Assembly (NCBI GenBank): GCA_965248195.1
Contig: CBDFIQ010000001.1
Coordinates: forward strand, 1,088,001-1,152,000
Source: Longimicrobiales bacterium
GTDB taxonomy: Bacteria; Gemmatimonadota; Gemmatimonadetes; Longimicrobiales; Gaopeijiaceae
Direction of reading: 5' to 3'
DNA: 64,000 bases
Shown: positions 862 to 25,266 of the stretch, in pieces
Numbering within the stretch: the first letter of the stretch is position 1
Layout of the letters: each line of letters opens with the position of its first letter
Program-made: the position numbers and the translations under genes
Notes under the pieces: generated by a model
Databases searched by the model: none
Told to the model about the DNA's origin: nothing
What the model saw: only the letters and a program-made list of their open reading frames with translations

Positions 862-1176
862 ATGAAAACAGTGTACCTATCCTTCGCGCTTCTCGGAGCC
901 ATTGTCCCCTACGTTTTCTTCATCGCCCACTTCCAGACCGAAGGCCTCGGGCTCGGAGCGTTTGTGAGCGCTCTCTTTGTCAATGGCGCTGCGGGGGGGT
1001 TCACCTCTGACATACTGATCTCGTCTGTCGTGTTCTGGGTCTGGCTGCTCCGCAGCGGTGCGCGACGGCCCTGGCTATACATCGTTCTCAACCTTGCGAT
1101 CGGGCTTTCCTGCGCCTTTCCCGCCTACTTGTACTCCAGGGAGCGGGAGGCCAGGGCGGCTGGGGCGGCCATCTAA
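862..1176 (+). CDS. DUF2834-like small membrane protein (cassette gene)
   Basis: Hydrophobic ~104 aa with ANGAAGGFTSD-type and IGLSCAFPAYLY motifs; stop codon lies inside the attC inverse core ATCTAAC. Confidence 0.7.
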   Translation: MKTVYLSFALLGAIVPYVFFIAHFQTEGLGLGAFVSALFVNGAAGGFTSDILISSVVFWVWLLRSGARRPWLYIVLNLAIGLSCAFPAYLYSREREARAAGAAI

Positions 1177-1251
1177 CACGAGATTGCTGCTGTCGCGTGT
1201 GACATTAGGCCCGCGCGCTTCGCCTGCGGTCACCATTTTAGCCGCGCAGCA

Positions 1252-1578
1252 TCTATAAGGTGAAGGGAGTCAACAGGGCGTAGCCCTCCCTTACCCGTCC
1301 GGGGTCCCGGAGGGGTGGCTCGGTCCACTGGTCTGTAGCTCAAGGCCTGCGTGATCATCTTCCGTTTTTCATCCTTCAGTACCAACGTCGCGTCCGATCT
1401 TGGGTGAGTCTCCTCTCACGAGGAACTCAGGCATCTATTCAGGTTTCATCCCAGCGCGGGGATGTCCGAAGATCTGCTATGCGAGCGGGGGGCTCAATCA
1501 GAATCTGAGGGTCGTCGTGCGACATGCTGCGCGCGGAGCTCACCCCTGTCGTGGTACGGTCCATCATCGTGTGTCATC
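1252..1578 (-). ncRNA. putative bridge/seek RNA region of IS copy 1 (RNA ends unknown)
   Basis: Target-matching segments at 1499-1505 and 1473-1478; donor-matching segments at 1432-1438 and 1396-1401; each pair flanks a hairpin. Confidence 0.85.
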
Positions 1579-2616
1579 TCAGTTTGATCGAGCCACGGGT
1601 TCATCGTGCCAGACCTCACCCGTACGGAGCATCGCGTGCACAGCACGAGCGAGGCGCCGAGCGGTAGCGACCCGAGCGACCTGCCACCCGAGCCGTTGCC
1701 TGATCAGTTCGTACGACTGTGATAGCCAGCTGTCGGGCGCGTGAGTGACGTGGCTCACGACGGTCCGGACGAAGGTGCCCCTCAGCCAACGGTTGGCCCC
1801 GGCGGGGATCGATCCGTGGCGGATGGGCCGGAGCCCTGACTGTGAGGAGCGAGGGGCTAGACCGGCGTAGCTGACCAGGTGCCCCGGTGTACGAAATCGT
1901 TTGATGGGCAACGTCTCGGTGGCGATGAGCAATGCCCGATAGGAACCGACGCCCGGGATGGTCTCGAGCAGAGCTACAGCGGGGACCTTGCGGCCTACGT
2001 GCTCAACCCTGCGATCAAGCGTTTTGATCATCGGCACGATCTGGTCGATGAGTTCCCACTGCATGTCGATGAACAGACGCCGCTCGGCTCCGAGCAGCGG
2101 CCACGCCACGTCATGCACCCACTGGCGTCCATCCTGGGTGAGCAGACGCCCACGCTCCAGATGAAGCCCGACGTTGTGGATCTGGGCATGGATGCGGTTC
2201 ACCATGCGTGTGCGTTCGCGTACGAGTCGTGCCCGGTTGCGTAGCAGTACCGCCTGCTCCCGCTGCTCGACGCACTTCGGATGGACCTCGGGGATGAGGC
2301 CCGCGAGTCGCATACGCGCCAACAACTCGGCGTCGATGTCGTCACTCTTGTAGTTGGACTCGGCGATGACTCGGAGCCGCTTGGCGTGAGCGAGCACGAA
2401 GTCGATCCCCCGCTCTTGGAGTCGATCGAAGAGCCACGGCCAGGCCGGACTCGTCTCGACGACCACCTCCAGGGGCTGATACTGCTCCAGTAGATCATTG
2501 AGCCGATCCTCTTGCGTGTTCTTGATCCGGATGGGTCCGGCAACGAGCTGACCTGTGTTGCTCACGATGGCGATCACCGAATACGTTGCGTGAGCATCGA
2601 TTCCTGCGACAAACAT
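1579..2616 (-). CDS. IS110-family DEDD recombinase/transposase
   Basis: GIDAH, VVVET and KSDDIDA RuvC-like acidic residues; IPGVG; SYAGLAP..SQSG serine motif. Confidence 0.95.
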   Translation of the reverse strand: MFVAGIDAHATYSVIAIVSNTGQLVAGPIRIKNTQEDRLNDLLEQYQPLEVVVETSPAWPWLFDRLQERGIDFVLAHAKRLRVIAESNYKSDDIDAELLARMRLAGLIPEVHPKCVEQREQAVLLRNRARLVRERTRMVNRIHAQIHNVGLHLERGRLLTQDGRQWVHDVAWPLLGAERRLFIDMQWELIDQIVPMIKTLDRRVEHVGRKVPAVALLETIPGVGSYRALLIATETLPIKRFRTPGHLVSYAGLAPRSSQSGLRPIRHGSIPAGANRWLRGTFVRTVVSHVTHAPDSWLSQSYELIRQRLGWQVARVATARRLARAVHAMLRTGEVWHDEPVARSN

Positions 2617-2811
2617 GGCTGGCCTCCTTGGGTTGGGTGCCGCAGGCCTTTGAGCAAGATCAGCGTAACGCCACGCTCGAGTGAGGTCAGCCTTTCGCCT
2701 TATAAGATCAGAATCGCAGAGACGTTATACGGACCTGCGCTGTGGCGCCTCGTCGAGTGACCCAACCCACAAGAATTGGACCGAGAAGAGTCCAATCATG
2801 AGGAGAGAGAA

Positions 2812-3148: not shown

Positions 3149-3817
3149 GTGAACGTCGTCTTGTTTGGTGCCACCGGAATGGTCGGGGCCGGGGTCCTGA
3201 TCGAGTGTCTGGACGATTCCAGAGTCGAATCGGTCCTCGCGGTGGGGCGGAGGCCATGCGCTGTCGCGCACCCGAAGGTCCGCGAGCTCATTCGCTCAGA
3301 TCTGTTCGAATACGGGGATGCGACCGACGACTTTCTGAACCTCGACGCTTGCTTCTTCTGTCTCGGGGCCTCCGCCCTGGGCATGAGCGAGGCGGCCTAC
3401 CGAAGGGTGACCTACGACCTGACAGTCGCTGCCGCTGAGTCGCTCCTCGAAGTGAATCCTGGACTTACGTTCTGCTACGTCTCAGGAGAAGGGACCGACA
3501 GCAGCGAACGGGGGCGCCTCATGTGGGCACGGGTCAAGGGCAAGACGGAGAATCAGCTTCTAGGAATGCCGTTCAAGGCCTACATGTTTCGGCCAGGGTA
3601 CATTCAGCCGCTGCGAGGTGTGCACCACAGGACGCGTGTGTACCGGGTGCTCCACACCGTGCTCAGGCCTTTCTACCCTCTGCTTGAACGGCTGCTGCCG
3701 GCGCACGTGACGACGACTGTCAATGTCGGTCGGGCCATGATCGAAGTGGCGGCGCGGGGACACACGAATCTCGTGCTGGAGAACTCTGACATCAACTCTC
3801 TGGCGGTCGCTGTCTAA
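3149..3817 (+). CDS. NAD(P)-binding epimerase-like protein (cassette gene)
   Basis: GATGMVG Rossmann motif, DACFFCLG, WARVKGKTEN; stop codon within attC R''. Confidence 0.85.
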   Translation: MNVVLFGATGMVGAGVLIECLDDSRVESVLAVGRRPCAVAHPKVRELIRSDLFEYGDATDDFLNLDACFFCLGASALGMSEAAYRRVTYDLTVAAAESLLEVNPGLTFCYVSGEGTDSSERGRLMWARVKGKTENQLLGMPFKAYMFRPGYIQPLRGVHHRTRVYRVLHTVLRPFYPLLERLLPAHVTTTVNVGRAMIEVAARGHTNLVLENSDINSLAVAV

Positions 3818-3912
3818 CAAGCGATTGCTACTGTCGTGTGTGACATCAGGCTCGCGCGCTTCGCTCGCGGTCGGCACATTGGACGCGCAGTAGAATGGCA
3901 GATCCGTTAGGC
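3812..3912 (+). other. attC: attC site, uninterrupted
   Basis: GTCTAAC...GTTAGGC with paired inner arms ATT[G]CTACTG / CAGTAGAAT and one extra base. Confidence 0.9.
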
Positions 3913-4030
3913 AGCAAGACTCCGGGCCGGAGTGCGGAGACCTCAGGGAGGACGAACTCGTGAGCCAAGCACTTCCAGCGGTACCCAAGACGGAACCTGT
4001 CAACGACAATGGGACACTCTACGGGATTAA

Positions 4031-5038
4031 TTAGAGAGCAATATCCTGTGTGGTGAGGGAAGGGATGGGAGGATTGATGTAGACGGCCTCCGGGAGCGGT
4101 TTGGGCTTCGGCACACCTGTGACGAAGCGTTCGGGATGAGCGGCCCATGCTTCGCGGAGCACGGATTTCCTGCCGGCAATGACCTGATCGGCGTTCCCGA
4201 AGTGGACCTGCTCGGGGGTTAGCATCGAGATACCGCCATGGCGGTGCTCGGCATTGTACCAGCGGAAGAACGATCGACACAACGTCTTGGCCTGGCCCTG
4301 ATCCCCGAACCGCCCGGGAAACGAGGGATGGTACTTCAAGGTTTTGAACTGAGCCTCGGAAAACGGGTTGTCATCCGACACCTGAGGCCGGCTCAACGAG
4401 CGAGTCACGCCGAGGTCAGCGAGAAGTTGAGCGGTGCATTGGCTCGTCATTGGAGCTCCCCGATCCGAGTGCAGGGTCAGGACCCGGGGCTGGACGCCAT
4501 GCTTCAGGCAGCTCTGCTGGATCAACCGGCCGGCCAGGGCCGAGTTCTCCCGGTCCGCCACCATCCAGCCCACGACGTAGCGGCTGTAGATGTCCATGAT
4601 GACGTAGAGGTAGTAATAGCTCCACTTCTTCGGCCCGAGTAGCCGCGTGATATCCCAGGACCACACCTGGTTCGGCGCCGTGGCCATCAACTCGGGCTTC
4701 TTGTACTCGGGATGGGTGCGCTGCGCCCGGCGTTCCTGAACCGGCACCTCGGAGGCCAGAACACGATACATCGTGCGTTCGCTGCACAGGTAGACCTCTT
4801 CGTCGAGCAGCGTGGCCACCACCTCGGCGGGTGAGCGGTCCACGAACCGCTCCGAACACAGCGTGTCGAAGACCTCGCCTCGTTCCGTCTCGCTCAATGC
4901 CCGGGCGGGCGTCGGGCGGGGCTGCCGTTGCCCGGTCGATGGGCCTCGACGACGGTAGAACGTCGATCGGGAGACCTCGAGAGCCGCGCACGCCGGTTTT
5001 ACACCGACGTGCTTAGCCAGCTCATCGGCCGCCTTCAA
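4031..5038 (-). CDS. IS3-family transposase OrfB (DDE)
   Basis: WSWDIT, LHSDRG, DNPFSEAQFKTLK. Confidence 0.93.
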   Translation of the reverse strand: MKAADELAKHVGVKPACAALEVSRSTFYRRRGPSTGQRQPRPTPARALSETERGEVFDTLCSERFVDRSPAEVVATLLDEEVYLCSERTMYRVLASEVPVQERRAQRTHPEYKKPELMATAPNQVWSWDITRLLGPKKWSYYYLYVIMDIYSRYVVGWMVADRENSALAGRLIQQSCLKHGVQPRVLTLHSDRGAPMTSQCTAQLLADLGVTRSLSRPQVSDDNPFSEAQFKTLKYHPSFPGRFGDQGQAKTLCRSFFRWYNAEHRHGGISMLTPEQVHFGNADQVIAGRKSVLREAWAAHPERFVTGVPKPKPLPEAVYINPPIPSLTTQDIAL

Positions 5039-5484
5039 GAGTTCGTCCCGTCGTCGAGGCTTATCCCCAGCAGCCCCGCAACTTTTCCCTGCACGTCGAT
5101 GATCAGGTGTGCCTTCCTGAGCTCATTCTCGAGCCGTGCGTTTTGCCGCTCCAGCTTGCGTACCTTCTCATCCAGCGGATTCCGCTCCGGCTTGCGGCCG
5201 CGTTTCTTCGACAGGGCCTTCAGCGACCCGCTATGCGCCGCCTTGCGCCACGTCGTCAGGTGCGACGAGTACAGGCCCTCGCGCCGCAGGAGCTGACCCA
5301 CCTCGCCGGGCTCGGTGCACCGGTCCGCTTCTTCGACGATCCGCAGCTTGTACGATGGACTGAACCGCCGGCGTAGCGGCCTATCTACTACCTCCGGGTC
5401 CGCAGGAGCTGCCGCGCTTCGCTTGGCCTCCCCGATTCCAGGGGCACTACCATTCTCTTCCATTCTCTCTCGCAGTCCCAACAT
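5035..5484 (-). CDS. IS3-family transposase OrfA (HTH)
   Basis: RRRFSPSYKLRI..LLRREGLYSSHL..WR followed by a coiled coil; 4-nt overlap with orfB. Confidence 0.9.
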   Translation of the reverse strand: MLGLRERMEENGSAPGIGEAKRSAAAPADPEVVDRPLRRRFSPSYKLRIVEEADRCTEPGEVGQLLRREGLYSSHLTTWRKAAHSGSLKALSKKRGRKPERNPLDEKVRKLERQNARLENELRKAHLIIDVQGKVAGLLGISLDDGTNS

Positions 5485-5557
5485 GTTCGTTTTCTCTGCC
5501 TTCGCCCTACTCTAATTCTTTGCGTGCTCCGTGTCTCACGTACGTTGGCAGAGAGGG

Positions 5558-5768
5558 AGACGGCACGGTCCCTATCCAGCCCGGTCACCCGATACCCCGC
5601 CCTCGCCAGGCGTACTGCGTGCCGACCGGCACCGCAGCATAAGTCCAAGACCCGTGGAAACCGCGACACAGGAAGCCAACGCACCAGGAAGGCGGCCTCT
5701 GCGTCAGAATGGCTCTTCGGAACCGACCGGAGAAAGGTTTCGAACCAGGTGCTGGAATAATCATTCAT
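5558..5768 (-). pseudogene. class I SAM methyltransferase N-terminal fragment, interrupted by IS3, antisense to the array
   Basis: RVLDLCCGAGRH and VTGLD motifs, then the IS end; no convincing C-terminal half on the other side. Confidence 0.7.
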
Positions 5769-5815
5769 TCGGGGAGTAGTGCGGTGGAGACGGTGGGTTG
5801 GGCAACCCCCCCGCG

Positions 5816-5915
5816 GCCTAAGACGTGCTCGGTACTGTCGCGATAGTGGGGGGGTCGCGCGCTTCGCTTGCGGAACCCATGTTAGGCGCGTAACAGAAGC
5901 ACAGAGACGTTAGGC
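5816..5915 (+). other. attC: attC site, degenerate
   Basis: R'' GCCTAAG (AAC to AAG); TACTGTCGCG arm; CAGAGACGTTAGGC end shared with the other sites. Confidence 0.75.
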
Positions 5916-5938
5916 GGCTCAAAAGGAGGTGCGGCATC

Positions 5939-7342
5939 GTGAGAACATCGATCGCGCTCACCCTCGTATGCGGGGTGCTCGCATCCGCGTGTGGCGCGGG
6001 GGATTACGACGTCGTCATCCAAGGCGGCCGGGTGATGGATCCGGAATCGGGTCTGGATGCCGTCATGAACGTCGGCGTCCGCGACGGCCGCATCGAGGCA
6101 GTGACCGAAGACGCGATAGTCGGCACACGCACGATCGACGCGAGCGGTCTTGTCGTCACAGCTGGGTTCATTGACCTGCACGAGCACGCTCAGAACGAAG
6201 AGGCGTATGCCTTGATGGTGGCGGACGGCGTGACGAGCGCGTTCGAGCTCGAGCTTGGGACGGGCGACGTCGCCGCGTGGTACGCCGAGCGGGAGGGCGG
6301 GCAGATCGTCAACTACGGTGTCAGCATCGGCCACATACCCGTCCGTATGGTCGTAATGGACGATCCCGGTGAGCTCTTCCCGAGTGGTCCGGGCGGCTAC
6401 GGAACCGCGAGCGACGCGCAGGTAGCCGAGATGGCGCGCCGCATAGAGGAGGGCCTGGCGCAGGGAGCCGTGGCTGTGGGGTTCGGCACGGCCTACACGC
6501 CGGCAGCTACGATGGCGGAGATCGAAACGATGTTCCGGGTTGCGGCCGAGCATGATGCGTCGGCGCATATTCACGTACGGGGTGGGTCCAGCGGTTTGGC
6601 GGAAACGATAGAGACGGCTGTGCGGGCGAACGTCCCACTTCACATCGTGCACGCCAACTCGAGTGGGGGGGGGCAAATAACCGAGTTTCTCCAACTCATC
6701 GAGCGTGCGCAAGCCGACGGCAAAGACGTCACGACCGAGGCATACCCGTACGGAGCGGGCATGACGGTCATCGAGTCCGCCCTGTTCGACGATTGGGAAA
6801 CGTGGACCGACGACCGGTTCAACAACTACCAGTGGGTGGAGACGGGAGAGCGCCTCACTCGTGAGACCTTCGGTGAGTATCGGGCTGGCGGAGGCACGGT
6901 CATCATTCACGGCCGTACCGAGGACAACGCGCTCGCCGCCATTAGCAGCCCGTTCACGATGATCGCCAGCGACGGCTTCATGGTGAACGGCCGAGGGCAC
7001 CCCCGCACGTCGGGATCCTACTCAAAAGTGTTGGGGCGCTACGTGCGCGAGCAAGGAGTGCTCAACCTGATGGACGCTTTACGCCGTATGTCTCTCGAGC
7101 CAGCGCGCCGGTTGGAGGACCGTGTGCCTTCCATGCGCCAAAAAGGCCGTGTGCGTGTCGGGGCCGACGCAGACATCACCATATTCGATTCCAGGACTGT
7201 GATCGACCGATCGACTTACGTGGACGCGACGATTACTTCCCAGGGCATCGAGTACGTGTTGGTGAACGGCGTACCGGTGGTCAGCGGCGGCGAGTTGGTG
7301 GAAGGCCTGAGATCAGGCCAACCGGTTAGGGCGGATCGCTAG
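5939..7342 (+). CDS. N-acyl-D-amino-acid deacylase-like amidohydrolase, lipoprotein (cassette gene)
   Basis: GGAGG RBS just after R'; lipobox ASAC; GFIDLHEH, IASDG, HPR, GADADITIFD. Confidence 0.85.
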   Translation: MRTSIALTLVCGVLASACGAGDYDVVIQGGRVMDPESGLDAVMNVGVRDGRIEAVTEDAIVGTRTIDASGLVVTAGFIDLHEHAQNEEAYALMVADGVTSAFELELGTGDVAAWYAEREGGQIVNYGVSIGHIPVRMVVMDDPGELFPSGPGGYGTASDAQVAEMARRIEEGLAQGAVAVGFGTAYTPAATMAEIETMFRVAAEHDASAHIHVRGGSSGLAETIETAVRANVPLHIVHANSSGGGQITEFLQLIERAQADGKDVTTEAYPYGAGMTVIESALFDDWETWTDDRFNNYQWVETGERLTRETFGEYRAGGGTVIIHGRTEDNALAAISSPFTMIASDGFMVNGRGHPRTSGSYSKVLGRYVREQGVLNLMDALRRMSLEPARRLEDRVPSMRQKGRVRVGADADITIFDSRTVIDRSTYVDATITSQGIEYVLVNGVPVVSGGELVEGLRSGQPVRADR

Positions 7343-7374
7343 GGACTGGCTCACTTTCCCGCTACGCACGACAC

Positions 7375-7484
7375 GACCAACACCGGTTCGAATCGCTACC
7401 GAGAGATTCTGGTGGAGTTGAAATGAATCGTCTTGGACAGACAGAGATGGCTGACAGCACAGCGGAATCGCAGAGACGTTAGAC
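7375..7484 (+). other. attC: partial/degenerate attC
   Basis: Right half CAGCGGAATCGCAGAGACGTTAGAC is clear; left half uncertain (GACCAAC at 7375). Confidence 0.55.
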
Positions 7485-7500
7485 GGCGCAACTTGCGGAT

Positions 7501-8223
7501 ATGGCGAAACCCTTCCTGACAGCTCGATGGGAGAGTCTGGTTCTCCTGAACTTCGAATGCCCAAGGGAGATCCTCGAGCCTCTCGTGCCGAGGGGCACCG
7601 AGCTCGACCCTTGGCGTGACGTCGACCTCATCAGTCTCGTCGGCTTCCGCTTCGTCGACACCAGAGTCAGGGGGGTCCCGATTCCGTGTCACCGCACCTT
7701 CGAAGAGGTCAACCTCCGATTCTACGTCCGTCGTCGAAATACCGACGGGTCGTTCCGCCGAGCGGTGGTCTTCATCAAGGAGCTCGTTCCTCGCCGCACG
7801 ATTGCGGCGCTCGCTCGGCTCATCTACAACGAACCCTACAGCATGGTTGCAATGGCACACGACGTCTCCCTAGACAAGAATTCTGGCGGACGCGTTGCAT
7901 ATTCCTGGGTGCACGGCGGACTTGCGTATGGTCTCCAGGCCAGGGTCGCTGGAGCGGCAACACCTCTCGTCCCCGGCTCCGAGGCAGAATTCATCACAGA
8001 ACACTATTGGGGCTATACCAAGCAGCGCGGCGGCGGCACCTCGGAATACCGCGTGGATCATCCAAGTTGGCTTGTTTGGGATGCCCTGGAGTCGAGTTAC
8101 GAGAGTCCCCCGACCGAGACCCTTTACGGCCCGAAGTTCAGCGAGGTTCTTGGAGCGGAGCCCAAGTCGGCCTTCGTTGCGGTGGGAAGCGAAGTGAGTA
8201 TGTTTTCCTCGGTCACGGTGTGA
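7501..8223 (+). CDS. DUF2071/YqjF-family protein (cassette gene)
   Basis: FLTARW, FEEVNLRFYV, AEFITEHYWGY; the stop TGA is supplied by the IS481 end and no attC follows. Confidence 0.85.
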   Translation: MAKPFLTARWESLVLLNFECPREILEPLVPRGTELDPWRDVDLISLVGFRFVDTRVRGVPIPCHRTFEEVNLRFYVRRRNTDGSFRRAVVFIKELVPRRTIAALARLIYNEPYSMVAMAHDVSLDKNSGGRVAYSWVHGGLAYGLQARVAGAATPLVPGSEAEFITEHYWGYTKQRGGGTSEYRVDHPSWLVWDALESSYESPPTETLYGPKFSEVLGAEPKSAFVAVGSEVSMFSSVTV

Positions 8224-8848
8224 GCCCGAACCCTGATGGGTAACAAAAACTGAACCTTGATGGGTTACAGTTTTGGGTTACGAGAAGAGGAGCCATTGTG
8301 GTCGAGGATGGCACCTTTTCTTATGTGCAGCCAGCCGAGCGAGACGGGGCCAAAGTAGACGGCCCAGATGTCGTGGTCGATCTCTTCGAGACCGATGTAG
8401 TCTCCACCGAGCAGGTGAGAGACGTTGATCCAGACGGAGTGCCATCGGATACCTCCGTTTGTTGAGACTTTGCGGACTTCGAAGTGAGCAGGGTAGTCGG
8501 GTGTGCTCAGCTTCGTCGGGAACGAGCGGGTGGAGGGTTGATATGCGGAAGCAGGCGGCTTCTGGCCTAGGGCTTCGTGAGGACGGATCTGGTTGAAGTC
8601 GGTGCGGAAGAAGTTGAAGCGCTTCTGCTGGGCGGAACGGTTTCCGGCAGGCGGGATGGTGGCCTCGGCCTTGAGGTCTTTGTGCATGCGTTCGTGACGG
8701 CCGTTCTGTTGGGGTGAGGCGGGCTCGATGAGGTCGGGCAGGATACCGAGCTTGATCCACCAGACGGAGAGTCGGGAGAGGCGGCCGAGAGCAATGGAAG
8801 CGAAGGGTGTCCCGTTGTCGGTGCGGATGCGCTGGGGCAGGCCGAACT
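8221..8848 (-). mobile_element. IS481-family 3' remnant A
   Basis: FGLPQRIRTDNGTPF...QQNGRHERMHKDLK integrase core; terminal repeated TA(A)CCCATCA motifs; cut by IS256. Confidence 0.8.
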
Positions 8849-10224
8849 GGTAGTGTCCCTAGATTTGTGTAAAAGCGGATAAGCTGGACAGGAGGGAAAG
8901 AAAAACGGAAGCTCCTCTGTTGTTGTTCACTGTCACATGAACCCGGGAGTCCGGGTCTGCAGAGCAGGCTCGGAACCGGAGAGGAGCTTCCGATGCAAGA
9001 GATTGTGGAGATCGGTCGGGCCACGCAAGACGAGCTACGCGATGATTTGCGCGAGCTGTTTCAAGGCGCGATCCGGCTGACGCTCGAGATGGTGCTGGAA
9101 GAGGAGCTGAAGGCCATGGTAGGTGCACGCCGCTTCGAGCGGGTGGGAAGCCGGAAGGACCATAGGAACGGCACATACCTGAGGCGGCTGCTGACGAGCC
9201 TGGGGCAGATCGAGGTCGCCATGCCCCGGAGCCGGGACAACGGTTCGCCGGCCGACGTGATCGGCCGCTACCAGCGCAGGAGCCCCGAGCTCGACGAGAT
9301 GATGGTCGAGGCGTATGTGAGCGGCGTGTCACAGCGCAAGATGGGCGACGTCACCGAGGCGCTGATGGGCGAGCGTGTTGGGCGCTCGACGGTGAGTCGT
9401 GTGGCAAAACGGCTCGACGAGGCCGTGGAAGGGCTGCGCCGTGCGCCGATCGAGGGGCCTCACCCCTATCTGTACCTGGACGCCACGTTCTTGGACGCCC
9501 GCTGGGCCCGCAAAGTCGAGAACGTGAGTGCGCTCGTGGCGTATGCAGTGGGCCCTGAGGGTCACCGACGGCTCCTGGCCGTCACGCTGGGCGCTGAGGA
9601 GTCGCAGCAGAGCTGGTCGGAGCTCCTCGAGCAACTCCAGGACCGCGGCCTCGGCGGTGTCGAGCTCGTGATCGCCGATGAGCACGCAGGCCTGGCAGCT
9701 GCGGTCCGCCGCTTCCTGCCCGAGGCACGCCGTCAGAGGTGTACGGTCCATCTGCAGCGTAATGTGGGGGCGAGGGTCCCCCACCGCCTACGCAAGCGCG
9801 TGGCGCGTGAGGTCTCGGTGATCTTCCAGACATCCGGACTCGCCGAGGCGAAGAAGCTCCTGGGCGAGTTCGGCGCACGCTGGAAGAAGGAGCTGCCCGA
9901 GGCCGTGGAGGTCCTGGAGCGGGGCTTCGGGGCAGCGACGCAGTTCTACGCGTTCCCCGAGGCGCACTGGCCCCGGCTGCGTACCACCAACAGCCTCGAG
10001 CGGCTGCACGGCGAGATCAAACGCAGGATCAAGGCCGCCGGCGCCTTCCCGGACCGGGCCAGCGCCCTCAGGCTCATCACGGCCGTCGCACTCAGGACCA
10101 CACACGTCTGGGGCGACCGGCGTTACCTCGACCTCTCACTCCTCCAGAAACAGGAGGTCGCCCAAGCAGCCTAGCCGAAGGCGAGGAGCTTCCTCCGCTT
10201 TTACACACAAATCGGGACTTGACC
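8849..10224 (+). mobile_element. IS256-family element, copy 1, 1376 bp
   Basis: IRs GGTAGTGTCCC..TGTAAAAGCGGA / GGTCAAGTCCC..TGTAAAAGCGGA; flanks do not form a duplication. Confidence 0.93.
8993..10174 (+). CDS. IS256-family (Mutator) transposase
   Basis: YLYLDA, VIADEH, QRCTVH, LRTTNSLERL. Confidence 0.95.
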   Translation: MQEIVEIGRATQDELRDDLRELFQGAIRLTLEMVLEEELKAMVGARRFERVGSRKDHRNGTYLRRLLTSLGQIEVAMPRSRDNGSPADVIGRYQRRSPELDEMMVEAYVSGVSQRKMGDVTEALMGERVGRSTVSRVAKRLDEAVEGLRRAPIEGPHPYLYLDATFLDARWARKVENVSALVAYAVGPEGHRRLLAVTLGAEESQQSWSELLEQLQDRGLGGVELVIADEHAGLAAAVRRFLPEARRQRCTVHLQRNVGARVPHRLRKRVAREVSVIFQTSGLAEAKKLLGEFGARWKKELPEAVEVLERGFGAATQFYAFPEAHWPRLRTTNSLERLHGEIKRRIKAAGAFPDRASALRLITAVALRTTHVWGDRRYLDLSLLQKQEVAQAA

Positions 10225-10692
10225 CATGCACAAAGACCTCAAGGCCGAGGCCACCATCCCGCCTGCCGGAAACCGTTCCGCCCAGCAGAAGCGCTTCAAC
10301 TTCTTCCGCACCGACTTCAACCAGATCCGTCCTCACGAAGCCCTAGGCCAGAAGCCGCCTGCTTCCGCATATCAACCCTCCACCCGCTCGTTCCCGACGA
10401 AGCTGAGCACACCCGACTACCCTGCTCACTTCGAAGTCCGCAAAGTCTCAACAAACGGAGGTATCCGATGGCACTCCGTCTGGATCAACGTCTCTCACCT
10501 GCTCGGTGGAGACTACATCGGTCTCGAAGAGATCGACCACGACATCTGGGCCGTCTACTTTGGCCCCGTCTCGCTCGGCTGGCTGCACATAAGAAAAGGT
10601 GCCATCCTCGACCACAATGGCTCCTCTTCTCGTAACCCAAAACTGTAACCCATCAAGGTTCAGTTTTTGTTACCCATCAGGGTTCGGGCTCA
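10225..10692 (+). mobile_element. IS481-family 3' remnant B
   Basis: Reverse complement of 8221-8688. Confidence 0.8.
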
Positions 10693-10880
10693 TTCACATA
10701 CGTCGCCGCGGCCAGCCCAAGACCACGCCTTCCACGAAGACGCGGAGCCCAGGGGATGGCATCGGCTGGATCATTGTCGAGGGCGTGGCCGCAAGAAGGC
10801 TTCCGAGGTGTGGGAGGATCGGTGTCCTGCGACCCCGTCAGCTGCATCTTCCGGCCTCAGGGGACGTGCACTACGTCGCC

Positions 10881-12086
10881 TTACCGTGCCGGTCCCGTTC
10901 CCGTGAGGGTGAACCTCTGCACTCGCTTCCTCGTACCTCCGATCCCGTTGACTTCTACCGTGTATAGGTTGCCCTGCGCGTCCGTCGTCATGTCATGGAG
11001 AACGTAGAACTCTCCCAGCTCGTCTCCGTGCTGCCCGAACCGAGTCAGCTCCTCCAGCGTCTCCCTATCGAGTACCACGATCTGGTGATCGCTCCGCTCC
11101 GCGAGGAATAGCCAACGCTGGTCCGGATCCGGCGAAAACGCGGTCCGGTTGACCGACCTGTGCGCCCCCGCTGTTGCAGTGATCAGATCGGTGGTCGGCT
11201 CGCCGAAGGAGGTGTCGTTAGCGCGCGCGGCCATGAGCGCCGGATCGGGGTCGGGGAACCGGCCGATCATCTTCTCCGCCACGAACTCACCTTCCGGGGT
11301 GAACACCTGCAGCCGCATTGACTGGGAATCTGACACGTAGACGAGCCCATCGTTCGCGACCCGAACACCGTGCACGAGGTGGAAGTGCTGGGGGTCCCAC
11401 TCGGCCTCGCCCGGCGTTGGGTCCGTGGGCGGGTTGCCATACGCGTCCCACATCCTCTTGAACGCCCCTGTGGTGGCGTCGAACACGATGATGCGCCGGT
11501 TGCCGTATCCGTCGGCCACAAACACCTCGTTCCTCGGCTGGTACACATAAACGTCCGCGGGGCGGTTGACGTTCAGGGTGTCCAGGTTTCCCTGGCTTGA
11601 ATTCGCCCGCCCGATCTGCATGACGAAATCGCCCTCACGGGTGAACTTGAGGATCTGGTCGTCCCCACCTCCGCTTCCCGCGATCCAGACGTAGCCGTCC
11701 GGGTCCACGGCGATCCCGTGCTCGTTGCTGGGCCATTCGAACTCGTTCGAGTCGCGGTACTCTGTCCCGCCCCACCCCTGGACGTACGTACCGTCGGCGT
11801 CGAACTCGAGAACCGCCGGCGCCGCCCGGCCCTGGTTTTCGTCGGGGATGGTACGGGGGCGGTGGATGATCCAGATGTGGTTCTCCGTGTCCGTGGCAAG
11901 TCCCGACGCCAAACCGAGAACCCAGTCGTTGGGTACCTGCGGCCAGGCCTCCGCCTCGTAGATCGGGATCTCACCGCCTCCCGCACTAGCCCCCGCGGCC
12001 TCTCCGCCTCCAGCGCTCCCTTCCGGAGCGCAGCCGACGACGACCGAAGCCGAGACGGCGATCGTCATCCACGCCTTTCGCATCAT
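10881..12086 (-). CDS. NHL-repeat beta-propeller lipoprotein
   Basis: GAGGAGG before ATG 12086; lipobox VVGC; EHGIAVD, VADGYGNRRI; paralog of 57036-59529. Confidence 0.8.
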   Translation of the reverse strand: MMRKAWMTIAVSASVVVGCAPEGSAGGGEAAGASAGGGEIPIYEAEAWPQVPNDWVLGLASGLATDTENHIWIIHRPRTIPDENQGRAAPAVLEFDADGTYVQGWGGTEYRDSNEFEWPSNEHGIAVDPDGYVWIAGSGGGDDQILKFTREGDFVMQIGRANSSQGNLDTLNVNRPADVYVYQPRNEVFVADGYGNRRIIVFDATTGAFKRMWDAYGNPPTDPTPGEAEWDPQHFHLVHGVRVANDGLVYVSDSQSMRLQVFTPEGEFVAEKMIGRFPDPDPALMAARANDTSFGEPTTDLITATAGAHRSVNRTAFSPDPDQRWLFLAERSDHQIVVLDRETLEELTRFGQHGDELGEFYVLHDMTTDAQGNLYTVEVNGIGGTRKRVQRFTLTGTGPAR

Positions 12087-12234
12087 GTGCCTCCTCGAAA
12101 CAAGTGCTCGGTGAAAGGCCATCCAGGCCGACTGCGGCCCGAGGGCTGCGTTCAGGCGGGTGATTGGGTCGGTCATCAGCGCAACATAGCCCGAGGCCTC
12201 AGGTTGTGCCCCCCGCCGCCTGAATACGAGGGCC

Positions 12235-12335
12235 ATCTAACGGATATGCGATTCTGCTGCGCGTCCAACATGCCCTCCGCGTGCGTAGCGCGCGACCCTC
12301 ACGCTTCACGTGACAGTAGCAATCGCTTGTTAGAT
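12235..12335 (-). other. attC: attC site, uninterrupted
   Basis: Reverse complement of the same attC family; cores at 12235-12241 and 12329-12335. Confidence 0.9.
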
Positions 12336-12971
12336 TGCACCCCCGTCGAACGCGATGCGCCAACGCTCTCCAGGGTCGTCAAACTGAACCTCGGCCACAG
12401 AAAAGACCGTTGGGTCGATCGGCCCACCGGTCCACTCCATCATTTCTTTGTGCTCAGGATGTCCCGGGTCAGACAGGGCAGCAAGCAGGTTCGCATAGCC
12501 GTGGGACCCGCCGCAGTCCTCGGGAGGACATGCCCCGGCCCCCCCGACGCATTCGGGCCCGGTGCTTAGGCTGCCGGCCTGCTCAAAGCCCTCAAGGATC
12601 ACTGCATGGTCCCAATTGTCGCCGAAGTCGTAGGTGTATTGGATCGGTGGTGGGTCGCCCGCCGTAAAGTCGAACGGAAACTCCGTCCAGTCGGCCGTGA
12701 CCGAAAGATCGTTCGGCACGTCCGGATCTGGGATTCCGAGCATCATTGCGGTGCCCGAGCCCGGATCGAGAACGCGGAATGTATGGAGGTGGTAGTCGAG
12801 CCATCCCATTGCGTCTTGGATCGCGACGTGGAGATCCCAAAAGGAATAGGTCGCGGGAACCTGAATTCACCGCCAAACAAGCGGGTTAGTCCCGACCAGA
12901 ACTACGAGGTATTGGAGCATCAAGCCTGGAGGAACCGGCGCGTCCCTCGGTTGACCCTGCGTCGACATCAT
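12330..12971 (-). pseudogene. pRiA4b ORF-3 family protein with an internal TGA (cassette gene)
   Basis: PLVWR*IQVP..SFWDLHVAIQDAMGWLDYHLH, YTYDFGDNWDH, GACPPEDCGG; stop at 12867-12869. Confidence 0.8.
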
Positions 12972-13113
12972 CACCCTGCTCGGAGCATGATCAGGTGCAA
13001 TCTAACGTCTCTGCGATTCTGATCTTATAAGGCGAAAGGCTGACCTCACTCGAGCGTGGCGTTACGCTGATCTTGCTCAAAGGCCTGCGGCACCCAACCC
13101 AAGGAGGCCAGCC

Positions 13114-14151
13114 ATGTTTGTCGCAGGAATCGATGCTCACGCAACGTATTCGGTGATCGCCATCGTGAGCAATACAGGTCAGCTCGTGGCCGGACCCATC
13201 CGGATCAAGAACACACAAGAGGATCGACTCGATGATCTACTTCAGCAGTATCAGCCCCTGGAGGTGGTCGTCGAGACGAGTCCGGCCTGGCCGTGGCTCT
13301 TCGATCGACTCCAAGAGCGGGGGATCGACTTCGTGCTCGCTCACGCCAAGCGGCTCCGAGTCATTGCCGAGTCCAACTACAAGAGTGACGACATCGACGC
13401 CGAGTTGTTGGCGCGTATGCGGCTCGCGGGCCTCATCCCCGAGGTCCATCCGAAGTGCGTCGAGCAGCGGGAGCAGGCGGTACTGCTACGCAACCGGGCG
13501 AGACTCGTACGCGAACGGACGCGCATGGTGAACCGCATCCACTCCCAACTCCACAACGTTGGGCTTCACCTGGAGCGTGGGCGTCTGCTCACCCAGGACG
13601 GACGTCAGTGGGTGCGTACCGAGGCATGGCCCCTGCTCGGAGACGAGCGGCGTCTGTTCATCGACATGCAGTGGGAACTCATCGACCAGATCGTACCGAT
13701 GATCAAAACCCTCGATCGCAGAGTGGAACACGTGGGCCGCGAGATCCCGGCTGTGGCCCTGCTCGAGACCGTCCCGGGCATCGGTCCCTACCGGGCATTG
13801 CTCATCGCCACCGAGACGTTGCCCATCAAACGATTTCGTACACCGGGGCACCTGGTCAGCTACGCCGGTCTAGCCCCTCGCTCCTCACAGTCAGGGCTCC
13901 GGCCCATCCGCCACGGATCGATCCCCGCCGGGGCCAACCGTTGGCTGAGGGGCACCTTCGTCCGGACCGTCGTGAGCCACGTCACTCACGCGCCCGACAG
14001 CTGGCTATCACAGTCGTACGAACTGATCAGGCAACGGCTCGGGTGGCAGGTCGCTCGGGTCGCTACCGCTCGGCGCCTCGCTCGTGCTGTGCACGCGATG
14101 CTCCGTACGGGTGAGGTCTGGCACGATGAACCCGTGGCTCGATCAAACTGA
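13114..14151 (+). CDS. IS110-family recombinase (variant allele)
   Basis: Near-identical to 1579-2616; AAGGAGG RBS. Confidence 0.95.
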   Translation: MFVAGIDAHATYSVIAIVSNTGQLVAGPIRIKNTQEDRLDDLLQQYQPLEVVVETSPAWPWLFDRLQERGIDFVLAHAKRLRVIAESNYKSDDIDAELLARMRLAGLIPEVHPKCVEQREQAVLLRNRARLVRERTRMVNRIHSQLHNVGLHLERGRLLTQDGRQWVRTEAWPLLGDERRLFIDMQWELIDQIVPMIKTLDRRVEHVGREIPAVALLETVPGIGPYRALLIATETLPIKRFRTPGHLVSYAGLAPRSSQSGLRPIRHGSIPAGANRWLRGTFVRTVVSHVTHAPDSWLSQSYELIRQRLGWQVARVATARRLARAVHAMLRTGEVWHDEPVARSN

Positions 14152-14422
14152 GATGACACACGATGATGGACCGTACCACGACAGGGGTGAGCTCCGTGCG
14201 CAGCATGTCGCACGACGACCCTCAGATTCTGATTGAGCCCCCCGCTCGCATAGCAGATCTTCGGACATCCCCGCGCTGGGATGAAACCTGAATAGATGCC
14301 TGAGTTCCTCGTGAGAGGAGACTCACCCAAGATCGGACGCGACGTTGGTACTGAAGGATGAAAAACGGAAGATGATCACGCAGGCCTTGAGCTACAGACC
14401 AGTGGACCGAGCCACCCCTCCG
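14152..14422 (+). ncRNA. putative bridge/seek RNA region of IS copy 2
   Basis: GATTCTG 14225-14231 and AGCAGA 14252-14257 match the target; ATAGATG 14292-14298 and AAGATC 14329-14334 match the donor junction. Confidence 0.85.
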
Positions 14423-15327
14423 CCCTCTCTGCCAACGTACGTGAGACACGGAGCACGCAAAGAATTAGAGTAGGGCGAAGGCAGAGAAAACGAACATGTT
14501 GGGACTGCGAGAGAGAATGGAAGAGAATGGTAGTGCCCCTGGAATCGGGGAGGCCAAGCGAAGCGCGGCAGCTCCTGCGGACCCGGAGGTAGTAGATAGG
14601 CCGCTACGCCGGCGGTTCAGTCCATCGTACAAGCTGCGGATCGTCGAAGAAGCGGACCGGTGCACCGAGCCCGGCGAGGTGGGTCAGCTCCTGCGGCGCG
14701 AGGGCCTGTACTCGTCGCACCTGACGACGTGGCGCAAGGCGGCGCATAGCGGGTCGCTGAAGGCCCTGTCGAAGAAACGCGGCCGCAAGCCGGAGCGGAA
14801 TCCGCTGGATGAGAAGGTACGCAAGCTGGAGCGGCAAAACGCACGGCTCGAGAATGAGCTCAGGAAGGCACACCTGATCATCGACGTGCAGGGAAAAGTT
14901 GCGGGGCTGCTGGGGATAAGCCTCGACGACGGGACGAACTCTTGAAGGCGGCCGATGAGCTGGCTAAGCACGTCGGTGTAAAACCGGCGTGCGCGGCTCT
15001 CGAGGTCTCCCGATCGACGTTCTACCGTCGTCGAGGCCCATCGACCGGGCAACGGCAGCCCCGCCCGACGCCCGCCCGGGCATTGAGCGAGACGGAACGA
15101 GGCGAGGTTACCTGATCGGCGTTCCCGAAGTGGACACATTGCCGGCAGGAAATCCGTGCTCCGCGAAGCATGGGCCGCTCATCCCGAACGCTTCGTCACA
15201 GGTGTGCCGAAGCCCAAACCGCTCCCGGAGGCCGTCTACATCAATCCTCCCATCCCTTCCCTCACCACACAGGATATTGCTCTCTAATTAATCCCGTAGA
15301 GTGTCCCATTGTCGTTGACAGGTTCCG
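14423..15327 (+). mobile_element. IS3-family element, copy 2, internally deleted (905 bp)
   Basis: Both ends present; CCG/CCG duplication; orfB DDE core missing. Confidence 0.9.
14496..14945 (+). CDS. IS3-family OrfA
   Basis: Identical protein to 5035-5484. Confidence 0.9.
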   Translation: MLGLRERMEENGSAPGIGEAKRSAAAPADPEVVDRPLRRRFSPSYKLRIVEEADRCTEPGEVGQLLRREGLYSSHLTTWRKAAHSGSLKALSKKRGRKPERNPLDEKVRKLERQNARLENELRKAHLIIDVQGKVAGLLGISLDDGTNS

Positions 15328-15489
15328 CCGGGACCCCGGACGGGTAAGGGAGGGCTACGCCCTGTTGACTCCCTTCACCTTATAGATGCTGCGCGGCTAA
15401 TGTGGTGACCGCAAGCGAAGCGCGCGAGCCTAATGGCTACCGCGACAGTAGCAATCGCTTGTTAGATGGCGCGGACGCTCGGAAAGACC

Positions 15490-16197
15490 TCACTCGCCAG
15501 CGGGTCTAGACTCCGCAATCAGCCTAAGGATCGTCGCAGCCTCATCGAGTAGCCGCTGCCCACCCTGCACTAGGTCCTGCTGTATCCACACTCGACTCGT
15601 CACCACGTCCGCGAAATCCGAGGCAGCCAAGCGTCGCAGATCGACCCTATACTCCACGGGAGGGACCGCAATACCCTCATATTCGGGATAGAGGCCTGTG
15701 AGGGCCCGCGCTTCGATCATCAACGGTTCCTCGAAGCCGATCCAATGGTCCCAAGCCCATTGTGAGACATTGCCCTGGACCGCGACCTGGCTTTCGAACC
15801 GGGCAAGAGCCACGCGGAGACTGTCACTGCGCAGAAGCCGGATGTCGCCGGAGTTGACCATGTCGTGGTATGTAGCGAGAACGGGTCGGAAATGTTCGAT
15901 ACGAAACGCGTCTTCCAGAAGTAACCTGACACTCTCTCTTGAGGCGCTGGCATAGTCGGTGTCGAGGAGGCCGAGGTTGGCATCTCGTATCCGGGCGGCC
16001 GTTTCAACGTGCGCGGTCAACTCGCGCTGGTTTTCAAAGAAATCCTGTTCAAGCGCCTCGAGGTACTGGATTTCCTCTGCAACCTCACGCCGCGCATCCG
16101 TGGCCGAGTCGGCCCACAATGCGAGAGCTGCGCCGATCAAGAGGAGCCCTACCTCGGCTACAGCTTGGCGCCAGTTGATTCGATCGGTGAGGGCCAG
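15490..16197 (-). CDS. membrane-anchored helical protein, DUF6090-like (cassette gene)
   Basis: Frame open to 16200; INWRQAVAEVGLLLIGAALALWAD; GGAG before CTG at 16197; YHDMVNSGDIRLL; start uncertain. Confidence 0.6.
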   Translation of the reverse strand: MALTDRINWRQAVAEVGLLLIGAALALWADSATDARREVAEEIQYLEALEQDFFENQRELTAHVETAARIRDANLGLLDTDYASASRESVRLLLEDAFRIEHFRPVLATYHDMVNSGDIRLLRSDSLRVALARFESQVAVQGNVSQWAWDHWIGFEEPLMIEARALTGLYPEYEGIAVPPVEYRVDLRRLAASDFADVVTSRVWIQQDLVQGGQRLLDEAATILRLIAESRPAGE

Positions 16198-16227
16198 GAT
16201 TCACTCCAGCACGAGGAACTGAGCGCC

Positions 16228-16325
16228 ATCTAACGTCTCGTGTTTCTGCCGCGCGTCAATCTGCACTGCGCGCGCGTAGTGCGCGACCCTCCCGGTATCG
16301 CGACAGTAGCAAACACTTGTTAGAG
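16228..16325 (-). other. attC: attC site, uninterrupted
   Basis: Cores at 16228-16234 and 16319-16325; CGCGACAGTAGCAA arm shared with the other sites. Confidence 0.88.
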
Positions 16326-16338
16326 AGCCCGGAAGCCG

Positions 16339-16356
16339 GTAGCATTGAGGTGCTAC
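16339..16356. promoter_or_regulatory. palindromic operator upstream of the TA operon
   Basis: GTAGCA-N6-TGCTAC, 14 nt before the antitoxin ATG. Confidence 0.5.
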
Positions 16357-16370
16357 TTCGGAGGAATACC

Positions 16371-18401: not shown

Positions 18402-18414
18402 CTCTGCGATTCTG

Positions 18415-19575
18415 ATCTTATAAGGCGAAAGGCTGACCTCACTCGAGCGTGGCGTTACGCTGATCTTGCTCAAAGGCCTGCGGCACCCAACCCAAGGAGG
18501 CCAGCCATGTTTGTCGCAGGAATCGATGCTCACGCAACGTATTCGGTGATCGCCATCGTGAGCAACACAGGTCAGCTCGTTGCCGGACCCATCCGGATCA
18601 AGAACACGCAAGAGGATCGGCTCAATGATCTACTGGAGCAGTATCAGCCCCTGGAGGTGGTCGTCGAGACGAGTCCGGCCTGGCCGTGGCTCTTCGATCG
18701 ACTCCAAGAGCGGGGGATCGACTTCGTGCTCGCTCACGCCAAGCGGCTCCGAGTCATCGCCGAGTCCAACTACAAGAGTGACGACATCGACGCCGAGTTG
18801 TTGGCGCGTATGCGACTCGCGGGCCTCATCCCCGAGGTCCATCCGAAGTGCGTCGAGCAGCGGGAGCAGGCGGTACTGCTACGCAACCGGGCACGACTCG
18901 TACGCGAACGCACACGCATGGTGAACCGCATCCATGCCCAGATCCACAACGTCGGGCTTCATCTGGAGCGTGGGCGTCTGCTCACCCAGGATGGACGCCA
19001 GTGGGTGCATGACGTGGCGTGGCCGCTGCTCGGAGCCGAGCGGCGTCTGTTCATCGACATGCAGTGGGAACTCATCGACCAGATCGTGCCGATGATCAAA
19101 ACGCTTGATCGCAGGGTTGAGCACGTAGGCCGCAAGGTCCCCGCTGTAGCTCTGCTCGAGACCATCCCGGGCGTCGGTTCCTATCGGGCATTGCTCATCG
19201 CCACCGAGACGTTGCCCATCAAACGATTTCGTACACCGGGGCACCTGGTCAGCTACGCCGGTCTAGCCCCTCGCTCCTCACAGTCAGGGCTCCGGCCCAT
19301 CCGCCACGGATCGATCCCCGCCGGGGCCAACCGTTGGCTGAGGGGCACCTTCGTCCGGACCGTCGTGAGCCACGTCACTCACGCGCCCGACAGCTGGCTA
19401 TCACAGTCGTACGAACTGATCAGGCAACGGCTCGGGTGGCAGGTCGCTCGGGTCGCTACCGCTCGGCGCCTCGCTCGTGCTGTGCACGCGATGCTCCGTA
19501 CGGGTGAGGTCTGGCACGATGAACCCGTGGCTCGATCAAACTGAGATGACACACGATGATGGACCGTACCACGAC
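18415..19575 (+). mobile_element. IS110/IS1111 element, copy 3, right end truncated
   Basis: Left end ATCTTATAAGG follows the core TG; cut by IS256 31 nt after the stop, so the RNA region is lost. Confidence 0.9.
18507..19544 (+). CDS. IS110-family recombinase
   Basis: Protein identical to 1579-2616. Confidence 0.95.
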   Translation: MFVAGIDAHATYSVIAIVSNTGQLVAGPIRIKNTQEDRLNDLLEQYQPLEVVVETSPAWPWLFDRLQERGIDFVLAHAKRLRVIAESNYKSDDIDAELLARMRLAGLIPEVHPKCVEQREQAVLLRNRARLVRERTRMVNRIHAQIHNVGLHLERGRLLTQDGRQWVHDVAWPLLGAERRLFIDMQWELIDQIVPMIKTLDRRVEHVGRKVPAVALLETIPGVGSYRALLIATETLPIKRFRTPGHLVSYAGLAPRSSQSGLRPIRHGSIPAGANRWLRGTFVRTVVSHVTHAPDSWLSQSYELIRQRLGWQVARVATARRLARAVHAMLRTGEVWHDEPVARSN

Positions 19576-24710: not shown

Positions 24711-25266
24711 GGTTCAGGACGTGGGTGTAGATCATGGTGGTCTTCACGCTTCGGTGTCCAAGTAGCTCCTGGATGGTGCGTATGTCGTAGCCATCCTCGA
24801 GTAGGTGAGTGGCGAAGGAATGCCGGAGGGTGTGGCAGGTGACTCGCTTGGTGAGCCCGAGAACCCGGACCGCGGTTTTCAGAGCTCGTTGCACGGACGT
24901 GGGGTGGAGGTGAAATCTGCCCCGAGCTCCGGTGAGCGGGTCCGCGGTGAAGGTCGAGGCGGCAAAGAGGAACTGCCAACCCAACTCGACGCCCGACCTC
25001 GGTGATTTCGTCGCATACATCCCCGGCAGCACCGCCCAGCCGAAGCCAGCCGCGAGGTCCTTTTCGTGGATGGCGCGGCGCCGTTCGATCTGCTCCTTTA
25101 GTGGGCCGACCAGCACCGCGGGAACCACAGAGACCCGCTCCCTGCCACCTTTCGCCCCCCGGACCCTCAGCTCTCGACCATCGAGATCCAGGTCCTTCAC
25201 CCTCAGTTGGAGTCCCTCTTTCAGTCGGAGACCCGAGCCGTAAAGCACGTGCCCAGCTAAAGGGCG
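24711..25266 (-). pseudogene. intI: integron integrase catalytic domain; N-terminus missing, C-terminus split off
   Basis: LYGSGLR, HTLRHSFATHLL, LLGH..TTMIYTH, plus the IntI-specific insertion (HEKDLAAGFG..LP....K.P.....GWQFLF). Confidence 0.92.

What the first reader, a model, noticed from the sequence alone, without database searches (positions are those of the whole stretch)
3812..16325. attC occupancy tracks guide match; one perfect empty site is the predicted next target
Occupied sites with both flanks read GATTCTGCTG. Four empty attCs mismatch the guides: CATTCTACTG (3812 site), GCTTCTGTTA (5816), GATTCCGCTG (7478) and GTTTCTGCCG (16228). The empty attC at 12235 is a perfect match (12250-12259). 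This is a natural specificity series that independently supports the guide assignment. It may also reflect attC escape variants (inference).
Basis: partly seen in the sequence, partly recalled or inferred. Interest (0 to 1): 0.7.

Follow-up and report, generated by a model that had tools for sequence, protein, structure and literature searches.

The report
RNA-guided jumping gene fills integron sites
A jumping gene that finds its landing site with a short guide RNA has filled most of the gene-cassette recombination sites in this genome that match its guide and almost none that do not; this is a clean natural picture of a known mechanism, and it gives no good sign that the host sites evolved to escape.

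Summary
The sequences are as described, but the window alone is too small to show the pattern (2/2 vs 1/5, P=0.14), and the 7478 site is only a half-attC. Genome-wide the pattern holds: 9 of 10 occupied sites match versus 5 of 29 empty ones (P=8e-5). The element is an IS1111-type IS with a 3' seek/bridge RNA. Guide-flank covariation in homologues (46 left, 35 right distinct guides; 0/5000 permutations) is the real independent proof of the guides. It sets the footprint at (G)ATTC-TG-CTGCGC(G), not the 10-mer. 12235 is one of two fully matched empty attCs in the genome, with three near-matched ones, so it is not the unique next target. Escape is not supported. The matched sequence is the genus consensus (38/65 sites in congeners without an intact copy; 11/22 here when occupied and empty are pooled, P=0.62). 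Empty sites diverge as much outside the footprint as inside, and the only IntI found is broken. Known kind (IS1111-attC); the scan reported this same element before elsewhere in this genome (e1-7899395).

The parts
1252..2710 (-). IS1111-type IS, copy 1, intact (1459 bp: 94-nt 5' end, 345-aa DEDD transposase at 1579-2616, 327-nt 3' non-coding region)
1172..1251 (+). R''-L''-loop part of the occupied attC split by copy 1 (its L'/R' end lies at 2711-2735)
1525..1533 (-). right target guide of copy 1 (complementary to the top strand of core plus right target)
1499..1505 (-). left target guide of copy 1 (reads left target plus core)
3813..3911 (+). empty attC; footprint CATTC-TA-CTGCGCG on the minus strand (core mismatch, -5 mismatch)
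5817..5914 (+). empty, degenerate attC (R'' box altered); footprint GCTTC-TG-TTACGCG, 3 mismatches
7453..7484 (+). half-attC remnant (L'-R' only); footprint GATTC-CG-CTGTGCT
12235..12335 (-). empty full attC of the pRiA4b-ORF3-like cassette; target fully matched over 14 nt at 12250-12263 (read on + strand), core TG at 12255-12256; body has 7 departures from the genus consensus, more than any occupied site (max 5)
13020..15386 (+). IS copy 2 in an attC; transposase 13114-14151; guides at 14197-14205 and 14225-14231; IS3-like fragment inserted in the 3' non-coding region at about 14423-15330, downstream of the guides
16228..16325 (-). empty attC; footprint GTTTC-TG-CCGCGCG (2 mismatches; the -4 change is compensated on the partner arm)
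18413..19573 (+). IS copy 3: left end and transposase only, cut just before the guide loop by an IS256-like element; its attC R' end lies at 17004-17019 beyond a second IS256-like element with a 9-bp duplication
24697..25260 (-). broken integron integrase gene (C-terminal part only, 238.7 bits, under the 265 cut-off); the best IntI match in the genome

Best explanation
An IS1111-type element recently spread in this genome. Its 3' RNA has a target-binding internal loop whose two guides pair with opposite strands of (G)ATTC-TG-CTGCGC(G) in the L' arm of the host's attC family, 13 nt in from the R' AAC, and the element inserts antiparallel to the cassette gene. The guide is tuned to the genus-wide attC consensus. 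Insertion removes matched sites from the empty pool, so the empty sites left are mostly those that already carried, or have since drifted to, a mismatch (target depletion), in an array whose IntI is broken. About 9 of 11 fully matched attCs are filled. Window 12250 and C1:489075 are the two left, with three near-matched sites; my estimate that 12235 is the next attC hit is about 0.35. Shown: anatomy, covariation, occupancy statistics. Inferred: RNA expression, circle formation, activity today, order of events.
For: Element anatomy. Copies are mostly 99.3-100% identical, copy 2 96.8%. Guide-flank covariation: left -1..-4 match 91-96%, right +1..+6 match 86-97%, 0/5000 permutations each. Loop stems covary: 8 of 12 pairs with two-sided changes, 0/500 shuffles. 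The donor guide tracks the right-end junction in 68 of 69 elements. Occupied 9/10 vs empty 5/29 (10-mer) or 2/29 (14-mer). Footprint-specific conservation in occupied sites, P=0.002, none in empties (23/182 vs 66/546, P=0.90). Congeners 38/65 perfect vs 2/13 empties here (P=0.006), but 11/22 pooled (P=0.62). IntI broken here, over the cut-off in 4 of 4 congeners.
Against: Empty sites are more decayed than occupied ones outside the footprint too (66/546 vs 23/378, P=0.002), so age explains part of the contrast. Pooled footprint departures exceed congeners (23/308 vs 21/672, P=0.004), though other columns do too (ratio of odds ratios 1.29, 95% CI 0.66-2.53). Core-changed sites are 5/22 here vs 2/48 in congeners (P=0.028, post hoc). 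attC copies and IS homologues are related by descent, so all P values overstate. The genome is 91.8% complete, so an intact IntI could be missing. No expression or transposition data.
Confidence: 0.8

Rival explanations
1. Host escape: selection fixed attC changes in the guide footprint (above all the TG core) that keep the hairpin but block the IS.
For: Core changes in 5/22 pooled full-length sites vs 2/48 in congeners, P=0.028. The TA core at 3812 pairs perfectly with its partner arm, so it is hairpin-neutral. A close clade has guides shifted by 3 nt, and one member (L072) sits in a TA-core site.
Against: 6 core departures observed vs 4.2 expected from this genome's general attC decay, P=0.25. 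Ratio of odds ratios 1.29, P=0.46. Pooled perfect fraction equals congeners, P=0.62. TA-core and GTTTC variants also occur in other genomes of the genus. IntI is broken, so there is little to protect.
Confidence: 0.12
2. The contrast is only age: recent insertions hit fresh consensus attCs and the empty ones are old and decayed everywhere; guide match is incidental.
For: Empties are twice as diverged outside the footprint (P=0.002), and 16 of 29 empties are partial.
Against: Occupied sites tolerate 23/378 departures outside but 0/126 inside the footprint (P=0.002). Only 1 of 8 well-preserved empties is perfect (P=4e-4). 9/9 perfect has P=0.02 at the congener rate.
Confidence: 0.05
3. 12235 is empty for a reason other than chance: it is an excision scar of an earlier copy, or its divergent attC body lacks a structural feature needed besides guide pairing.
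For: IS621 excision regenerates the target at native loci (PMC13626964, section 5 read). ISPpu10 needs a target stem-loop besides guide pairing (10.64898/2026.03.19.712850, abstract and parts 1-2 read). The 12235 body has 7 departures vs at most 5 in occupied sites.
Against: For the IS1111 member ISEc11 the rejoined target was not detected (PMC11187229, part 2 read). 12235 folds into a full hairpin (z=-2.9). Two leftovers among 11 matched sites need no special cause. This rival is compatible with the best explanation for the other sites.
Confidence: 0.2

Closest known systems
IS1111-attC elements ISKpn4, ISPst6, ISPa25 and their seekRNAs (Siddiquee et al. 2024, PMC11187229; parts 1-3 and passages read; Tetu & Holmes 2008 and Post & Hall 2009 seen only as entries in its reference list)
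   Same: 3' non-coding region, subterminal inverted repeats with 7- and 3-bp extensions, 330-350 aa DEDD transposase, target at one end of attC, top-strand complement lying 5' of the bottom-strand match.
   Different: Different attC family and guides. The transposase has no close relative in PLSDB (all 595 records under 60%; the 25 best full-length rows 30.7-34.6%, mostly haloarchaeal), so it is probably a separate lineage that reached attC independently (inference; ISKpn4 itself was not fetched).
IS621 bridge RNA system (Durrant et al. 2024, PMC11208160; passages read)
   Same: Two-loop logic (target and donor guides on both strands around a dinucleotide core), low mismatch tolerance with G:T wobble allowed, targets in a repeated hairpin family.
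   Different: RNA lies 3' of the transposase, guide order reversed, core TG rather than CT, short left guide (4-5 nt) and long right guide (6-7 nt).
ISPpu10 sequence-structure dual match (bioRxiv 10.64898/2026.03.19.712850; abstract and parts 1-2 of 8 read)
   Same: RNA-guided IS110-type element in a hairpin-forming repeat; left guide permissive away from the core.
   Different: REP target and 5' RNA; no mention of attC, integron or IS1111 in its main text. A structural requirement was not tested for the present element.

Membership tests
IS1111 family | DEDD (RuvC-like) transposase with C-terminal SG motif, 330-350 aa | tested here: met
   PF01548 and PF02371 over cut-off; 345 aa with D7, E54, D92, D95 and GL-P----SG at 252-261
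IS1111 family | Long non-coding region downstream of the transposase | tested here: met
   327 nt downstream vs 94 nt upstream
IS1111 family | Subterminal inverted repeats of 11-13 bp with 7-bp left and 3-bp right extensions | tested here: met
   13-bp repeat with 11 matches, 7 nt and 3 nt in from the ends
IS1111 family | Two target matches in the RNA, top-strand complement 5' of bottom-strand match | tested here: met
IS1111 family | Circular intermediate with junction promoter; RNA co-purifies with transposase and is needed for movement | not testable with these tools
   Only contigs were available. A TTGACT hexamer lies 17 nt before a weak -10-like hexamer across the predicted junction (inference)
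IS1111 family | Transposase groups with IS1111 in the ISfinder phylogeny | not tested
   No tree with named members was built; the only PDB match is ISCro4 at E=0.0075
IS1111-attC group (ISKpn4/ISPst6) | Inserts at one fixed position and orientation in attC | tested here: met
   12 of 12 left ends and 11 of 11 right ends found by exact end motifs share register and core
IS1111-attC group (ISKpn4/ISPst6) | Transposase or seekRNA closely related to ISKpn4; same target position | tested here: inconclusive
   No close plasmid relative, but ISKpn4 was not compared directly; Tetu & Holmes 2008 not held
Integron attC | R''/R' boxes, paired L arms with two extrahelical bases, hairpin | tested here: met
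   Full-length at 3812, 5816 (R'' altered), 12235, 16228. Fold z-scores +0.2, -1.4, -2.9, -2.6, so only two fold better than shuffles. Not met for 7478
Integron attC | Intact IntI in the genome | tested here: not met
   Best match is the window remnant, below cut-off; genome 91.8% complete

The most novel reading that the evidence does not exclude
The attC family of this genus is an arena for an arms race. At least five RNA-guided IS110/IS1111 types divide one ~100-bp site among them (R' box, L' arm, L' arm +3 nt, apical loop, R'' box). Hosts fix hairpin-neutral core changes to escape, and the IS answers by shifting its guides 3 nt (seen at 89-90% transposase identity; L072 sits in a TA-core site). 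The crowding and the shifted guides are seen. The escape-and-answer causality is not shown.
Probability: 0.12. Interest if true: 0.7.

Novelty: new member of a known kind. Interest (0 to 1): 0.32.

Why it matters
It gives a natural mismatch-tolerance map for an IS1111-type seek/bridge RNA in a transposase lineage far from the tested ones: strict at the core and -1..-3, loose at -5, G:T wobble allowed, long right guide. More than 40 naturally reprogrammed guides are on hand for tool building. It also shows an RNA-guided IS close to using up its targets in an integron array, which would freeze cassette shuffling (inference). The mechanism itself is published; the step that would be new, host escape, is not supported by the tests here.

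Tried and rejected
Reads: only Logan contigs, host depth about 2-8, and X1/X2 are one sample that may be the assembly's source. Contigs 12239-13030 (X1) and 12237-13029 (X2) carry the empty allele with 0 differences, but have under 31 letters left of the core, so they do not formally bridge it. No joint from 12256 into the IS left end is among the 15 joints shown of 52. Inconclusive for rare insertion. Joined forms that skip copy 2 (sides 18-21 nt; depth 6.5 in X1, 14.6 in X2, 100 in X14) cannot be told from empty attCs of other organisms, so they were not used. Related genomes: of 300 family genomes, 7 hold the cassette that owns the 12235 attC. In the 6 loci examined (G258 not examined) the attC is replaced or unrecognisable. 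The neighbouring NHL cassette start gave only short matches. So no orthologous site could be scored. Rfam: no match in the window. Folding the whole non-coding region alone gave z=-0.7; the structure claim rests on covariation. One translation was the wrong frame. The window row in alignment A1 was cut short at its 3' end. Rows dropped: L047 and L141 from the right-guide test (anchor off by one). Of 121 loci only 78 left and 63 right guide-flank pairs could be parsed. The C1:930162 site, whose target is cut by another IS, and hits at E>=0.1 were left out of the census of 29. 19 of 86 congener anchors had no recognisable 5' arm and 2 were IS remnants; three doubtful rows stayed in the 65. Literature: searches 'IS1111+attC', 'IS1111/seekRNA/target mismatch', 'bridge RNA+attC+integron', and 'IS110/target site/escape/bridge RNA/saturat' listed no paper on attC escape from, or saturation by, these elements, judged from titles and abstract starts; most subscription papers are not searched. 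No supplements were read; those of PMC11187229 hold the ISKpn4 target alignment, which bears on the position comparison.
Full report
What is there. The window is C1:1088001-1152000 of a 4.86-Mb, 63% GC genome in two contigs. Named records with the closest transposases are mostly titled Gemmatimonadota. Positions 1-25 kb are a fragmented integron cassette array, plus-oriented up to 8.2 kb and minus-oriented from 10.9 kb, with a broken intI at 24697-25260. It holds three copies of a 1459-bp IS with a 345-aa DEDD transposase, 94-nt 5' and 327-nt 3' non-coding ends, and 13-bp subterminal repeats set in by 7 and 3 nt. These are the IS1111 marks given in PMC11187229 (parts 1-3 read). Both junctions carry TG. 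The insertion lies in the L' arm of attC, 13 nt from the R' AAC, antiparallel to the cassette gene.

Observation. The five empty-site sequences are right. The 7478 site is a half-site, only two occupied sites have both flanks, and the window series gives P=0.14. So I took the test to the genome. Exact end motifs found 12 left and 11 right ends. All 12 left flanks end TGCGATTC-TG; 10 of 11 right flanks begin TG-CTGCGC and one begins TG-TTGCGC. Ten copies have both flanks, in distinct cassette contexts (one 221-bp shared repeat among the 500-bp flanks). An HMM census (no hits at E<0.1 in a shuffled genome) gave 29 empty sites with a readable target, 13 of them full length. Perfect: occupied 9/10 vs empty 5/29 (10-mer, P=8e-5), 3/29 (12-mer), 2/29 (14-mer). 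Allowing G:T wobble in the 12-mer it is 10/10 vs 5/29.

The guides. The occupancy series cannot prove RNA guidance, because the motif came from the occupied sites. Homologues can. From 121 loci, 46 distinct left guides match their own flank at 96, 91, 93 and 91% at -1..-4, 50% at -5 (null 30%) and at null beyond. 35 distinct right guides match at 86-97% over +1..+6, 57% at +7 and at null beyond. 0 of 5000 permutations reached either total. The guides lie on the two sides of an internal loop closed by covarying stems (97.5% of cells paired, 8 of 12 pairs with two-sided change, far above slid controls). The donor guide follows the right-end junction in 68 of 69 elements. The footprint is therefore (G)ATTC-TG-CTGCGC(G). 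In the 30 relatives with the same register, occupied flanks match at -1..-3 in 21/21, -4 in 19/21, -5 in 14/21, and +1..+6 in 22-24 of 25 (related elements, not independent).

Is it the footprint or just age? Using columns defined as conserved in 48 full-length congener attCs, occupied sites depart at 0/126 footprint cells vs 23/378 others (P=0.002), and empties at 23/182 vs 66/546 (P=0.90). Empties are more decayed overall (P=0.002), but among the 8 as well preserved as occupied sites only 1 is perfect (P=4e-4). So guide match matters on top of age.

Next target. The 14-mer occurs twice in the genome, at window 12250 and C1:489075. C1:487998 differs only at the loosely read -5. C1:47826 and the truncated C2:2522110 differ by one wobble. 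12235 is a fair candidate (my estimate 0.35), not the sole one, and its body is more divergent than any occupied site. It could also be an excision scar: IS621 regenerates its target (PMC13626964, section 5 read), though ISEc11 did not detectably (PMC11187229). Copy-out is reported for another IS110 (10.1101/2025.10.25.684509, abstract only). Reads and related genomes gave no answer.

Escape. attCs were anchored on their loop, independently of the footprint, in all 12 genomes of the genus, and read in the regions fetched for eight congeners (the single hits in G002 and G010 were not fetched). G005 and G007 have no close transposase, G006 only two right-end remnants, G011 one partial copy. In these four, 38/65 sites are perfect. 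Here 2/13 empties are perfect (P=0.006), but 11/22 when occupied sites are added back (P=0.62). That is depletion. Against this reading: pooled footprint departures (23/308 vs 21/672, P=0.004) and core-changed sites (5/22 vs 2/48, P=0.028) are higher here. But all conserved columns are (89/924 vs 105/2016); the ratio of odds ratios is 1.29 (0.66-2.53), and 6 core departures are seen vs 4.2 expected (P=0.25). The only IntI found is broken, while 4 of 4 congeners have one over the cut-off, which fits relaxed decay. Escape is unsupported, not excluded; the power is low.

Comparison and verdict. It works like, and meets every testable mark of, an IS1111 seek/bridge-RNA element. attC targeting by such elements is published (ISKpn4, ISPst6, ISPa25). 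The transposase is remote from plasmid records and PDB, so it is likely a separate attC-targeting lineage (inference). The scan had reported the same element at another locus of this genome (e1-7899395); this finding adds the occupancy statistics. The livelier lead is the crowding of one attC family by several IS110 types and a 3-nt guide shift (7 of 95 homologue left flanks). New member of a known kind; interest 0.32.

Noticed in passing
L073, L074, L072, L037, L038, L104, L140: Homologues (65-90% transposase identity) insert 3 nt further into the same attC arm; where the RNA is on the contig the left guide is shifted to match (L073, L037, L038, L104). L072 occupies a TA-core site. G006 holds a right-end remnant of this register (L194:3636).
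   Followed up: partly
G005 (L179, L181, L184), G006 (L195, L196), G011 (L205, L208, L212): Three other IS110-family elements (about 26-30% identity; Pfam DEDD confirmed) hit the same attC family: at the R' box (9 of 31 anchors in G005), just past R'' (9 of 25 in G006) and inside R'' (7 of 21 in G011). L022 and L023 carry two different elements in one attC. Their guides were not analysed.
   Followed up: partly
L045: A 64% homologue with different guides sits in the apical loop of a long variant of this attC family (like C1:43877).
   Followed up: no
L048: The right end is followed by a second copy of the element's own non-coding region starting at the left-guide core: self-insertion into guide-coding DNA or a tandem duplication.
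   Followed up: no
L005, L067, L042, L043: The core differs between the junctions (TG left; CG or AG right), and the right guide ends in CG; this may tell which junction keeps the target's core.
   Followed up: no
window 8224-10692: Two inverted copies of the 3' end of an rve-type IS flank an IS256-like element exactly where the cassette array switches orientation; probably an IS-made rearrangement.
   Followed up: no
window 17011-18410: IS256-like element inserted inside an attC, 2 nt from the IS1111 left end, with a 9-bp duplication; further copies cut IS copy 3 and the intI remnant.
   Followed up: partly
window 16317-16999: MazE-like antitoxin plus Fic/DOC cassette; an 87% identical copy lies in the G005 array (L184).
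   Followed up: no
window attCs, e.g. 3812 and 12235: The two extrahelical bases read G and T on the gene-sense strand, so C and A on the bottom strand; the usual bottom-strand G and T are recalled, not checked.
   Followed up: no
L239-L242: Homologues of the pRiA4b-ORF3-like cassette sit next to a different, ~60-bp attC-like hairpin family and have lost their own attC.
   Followed up: no
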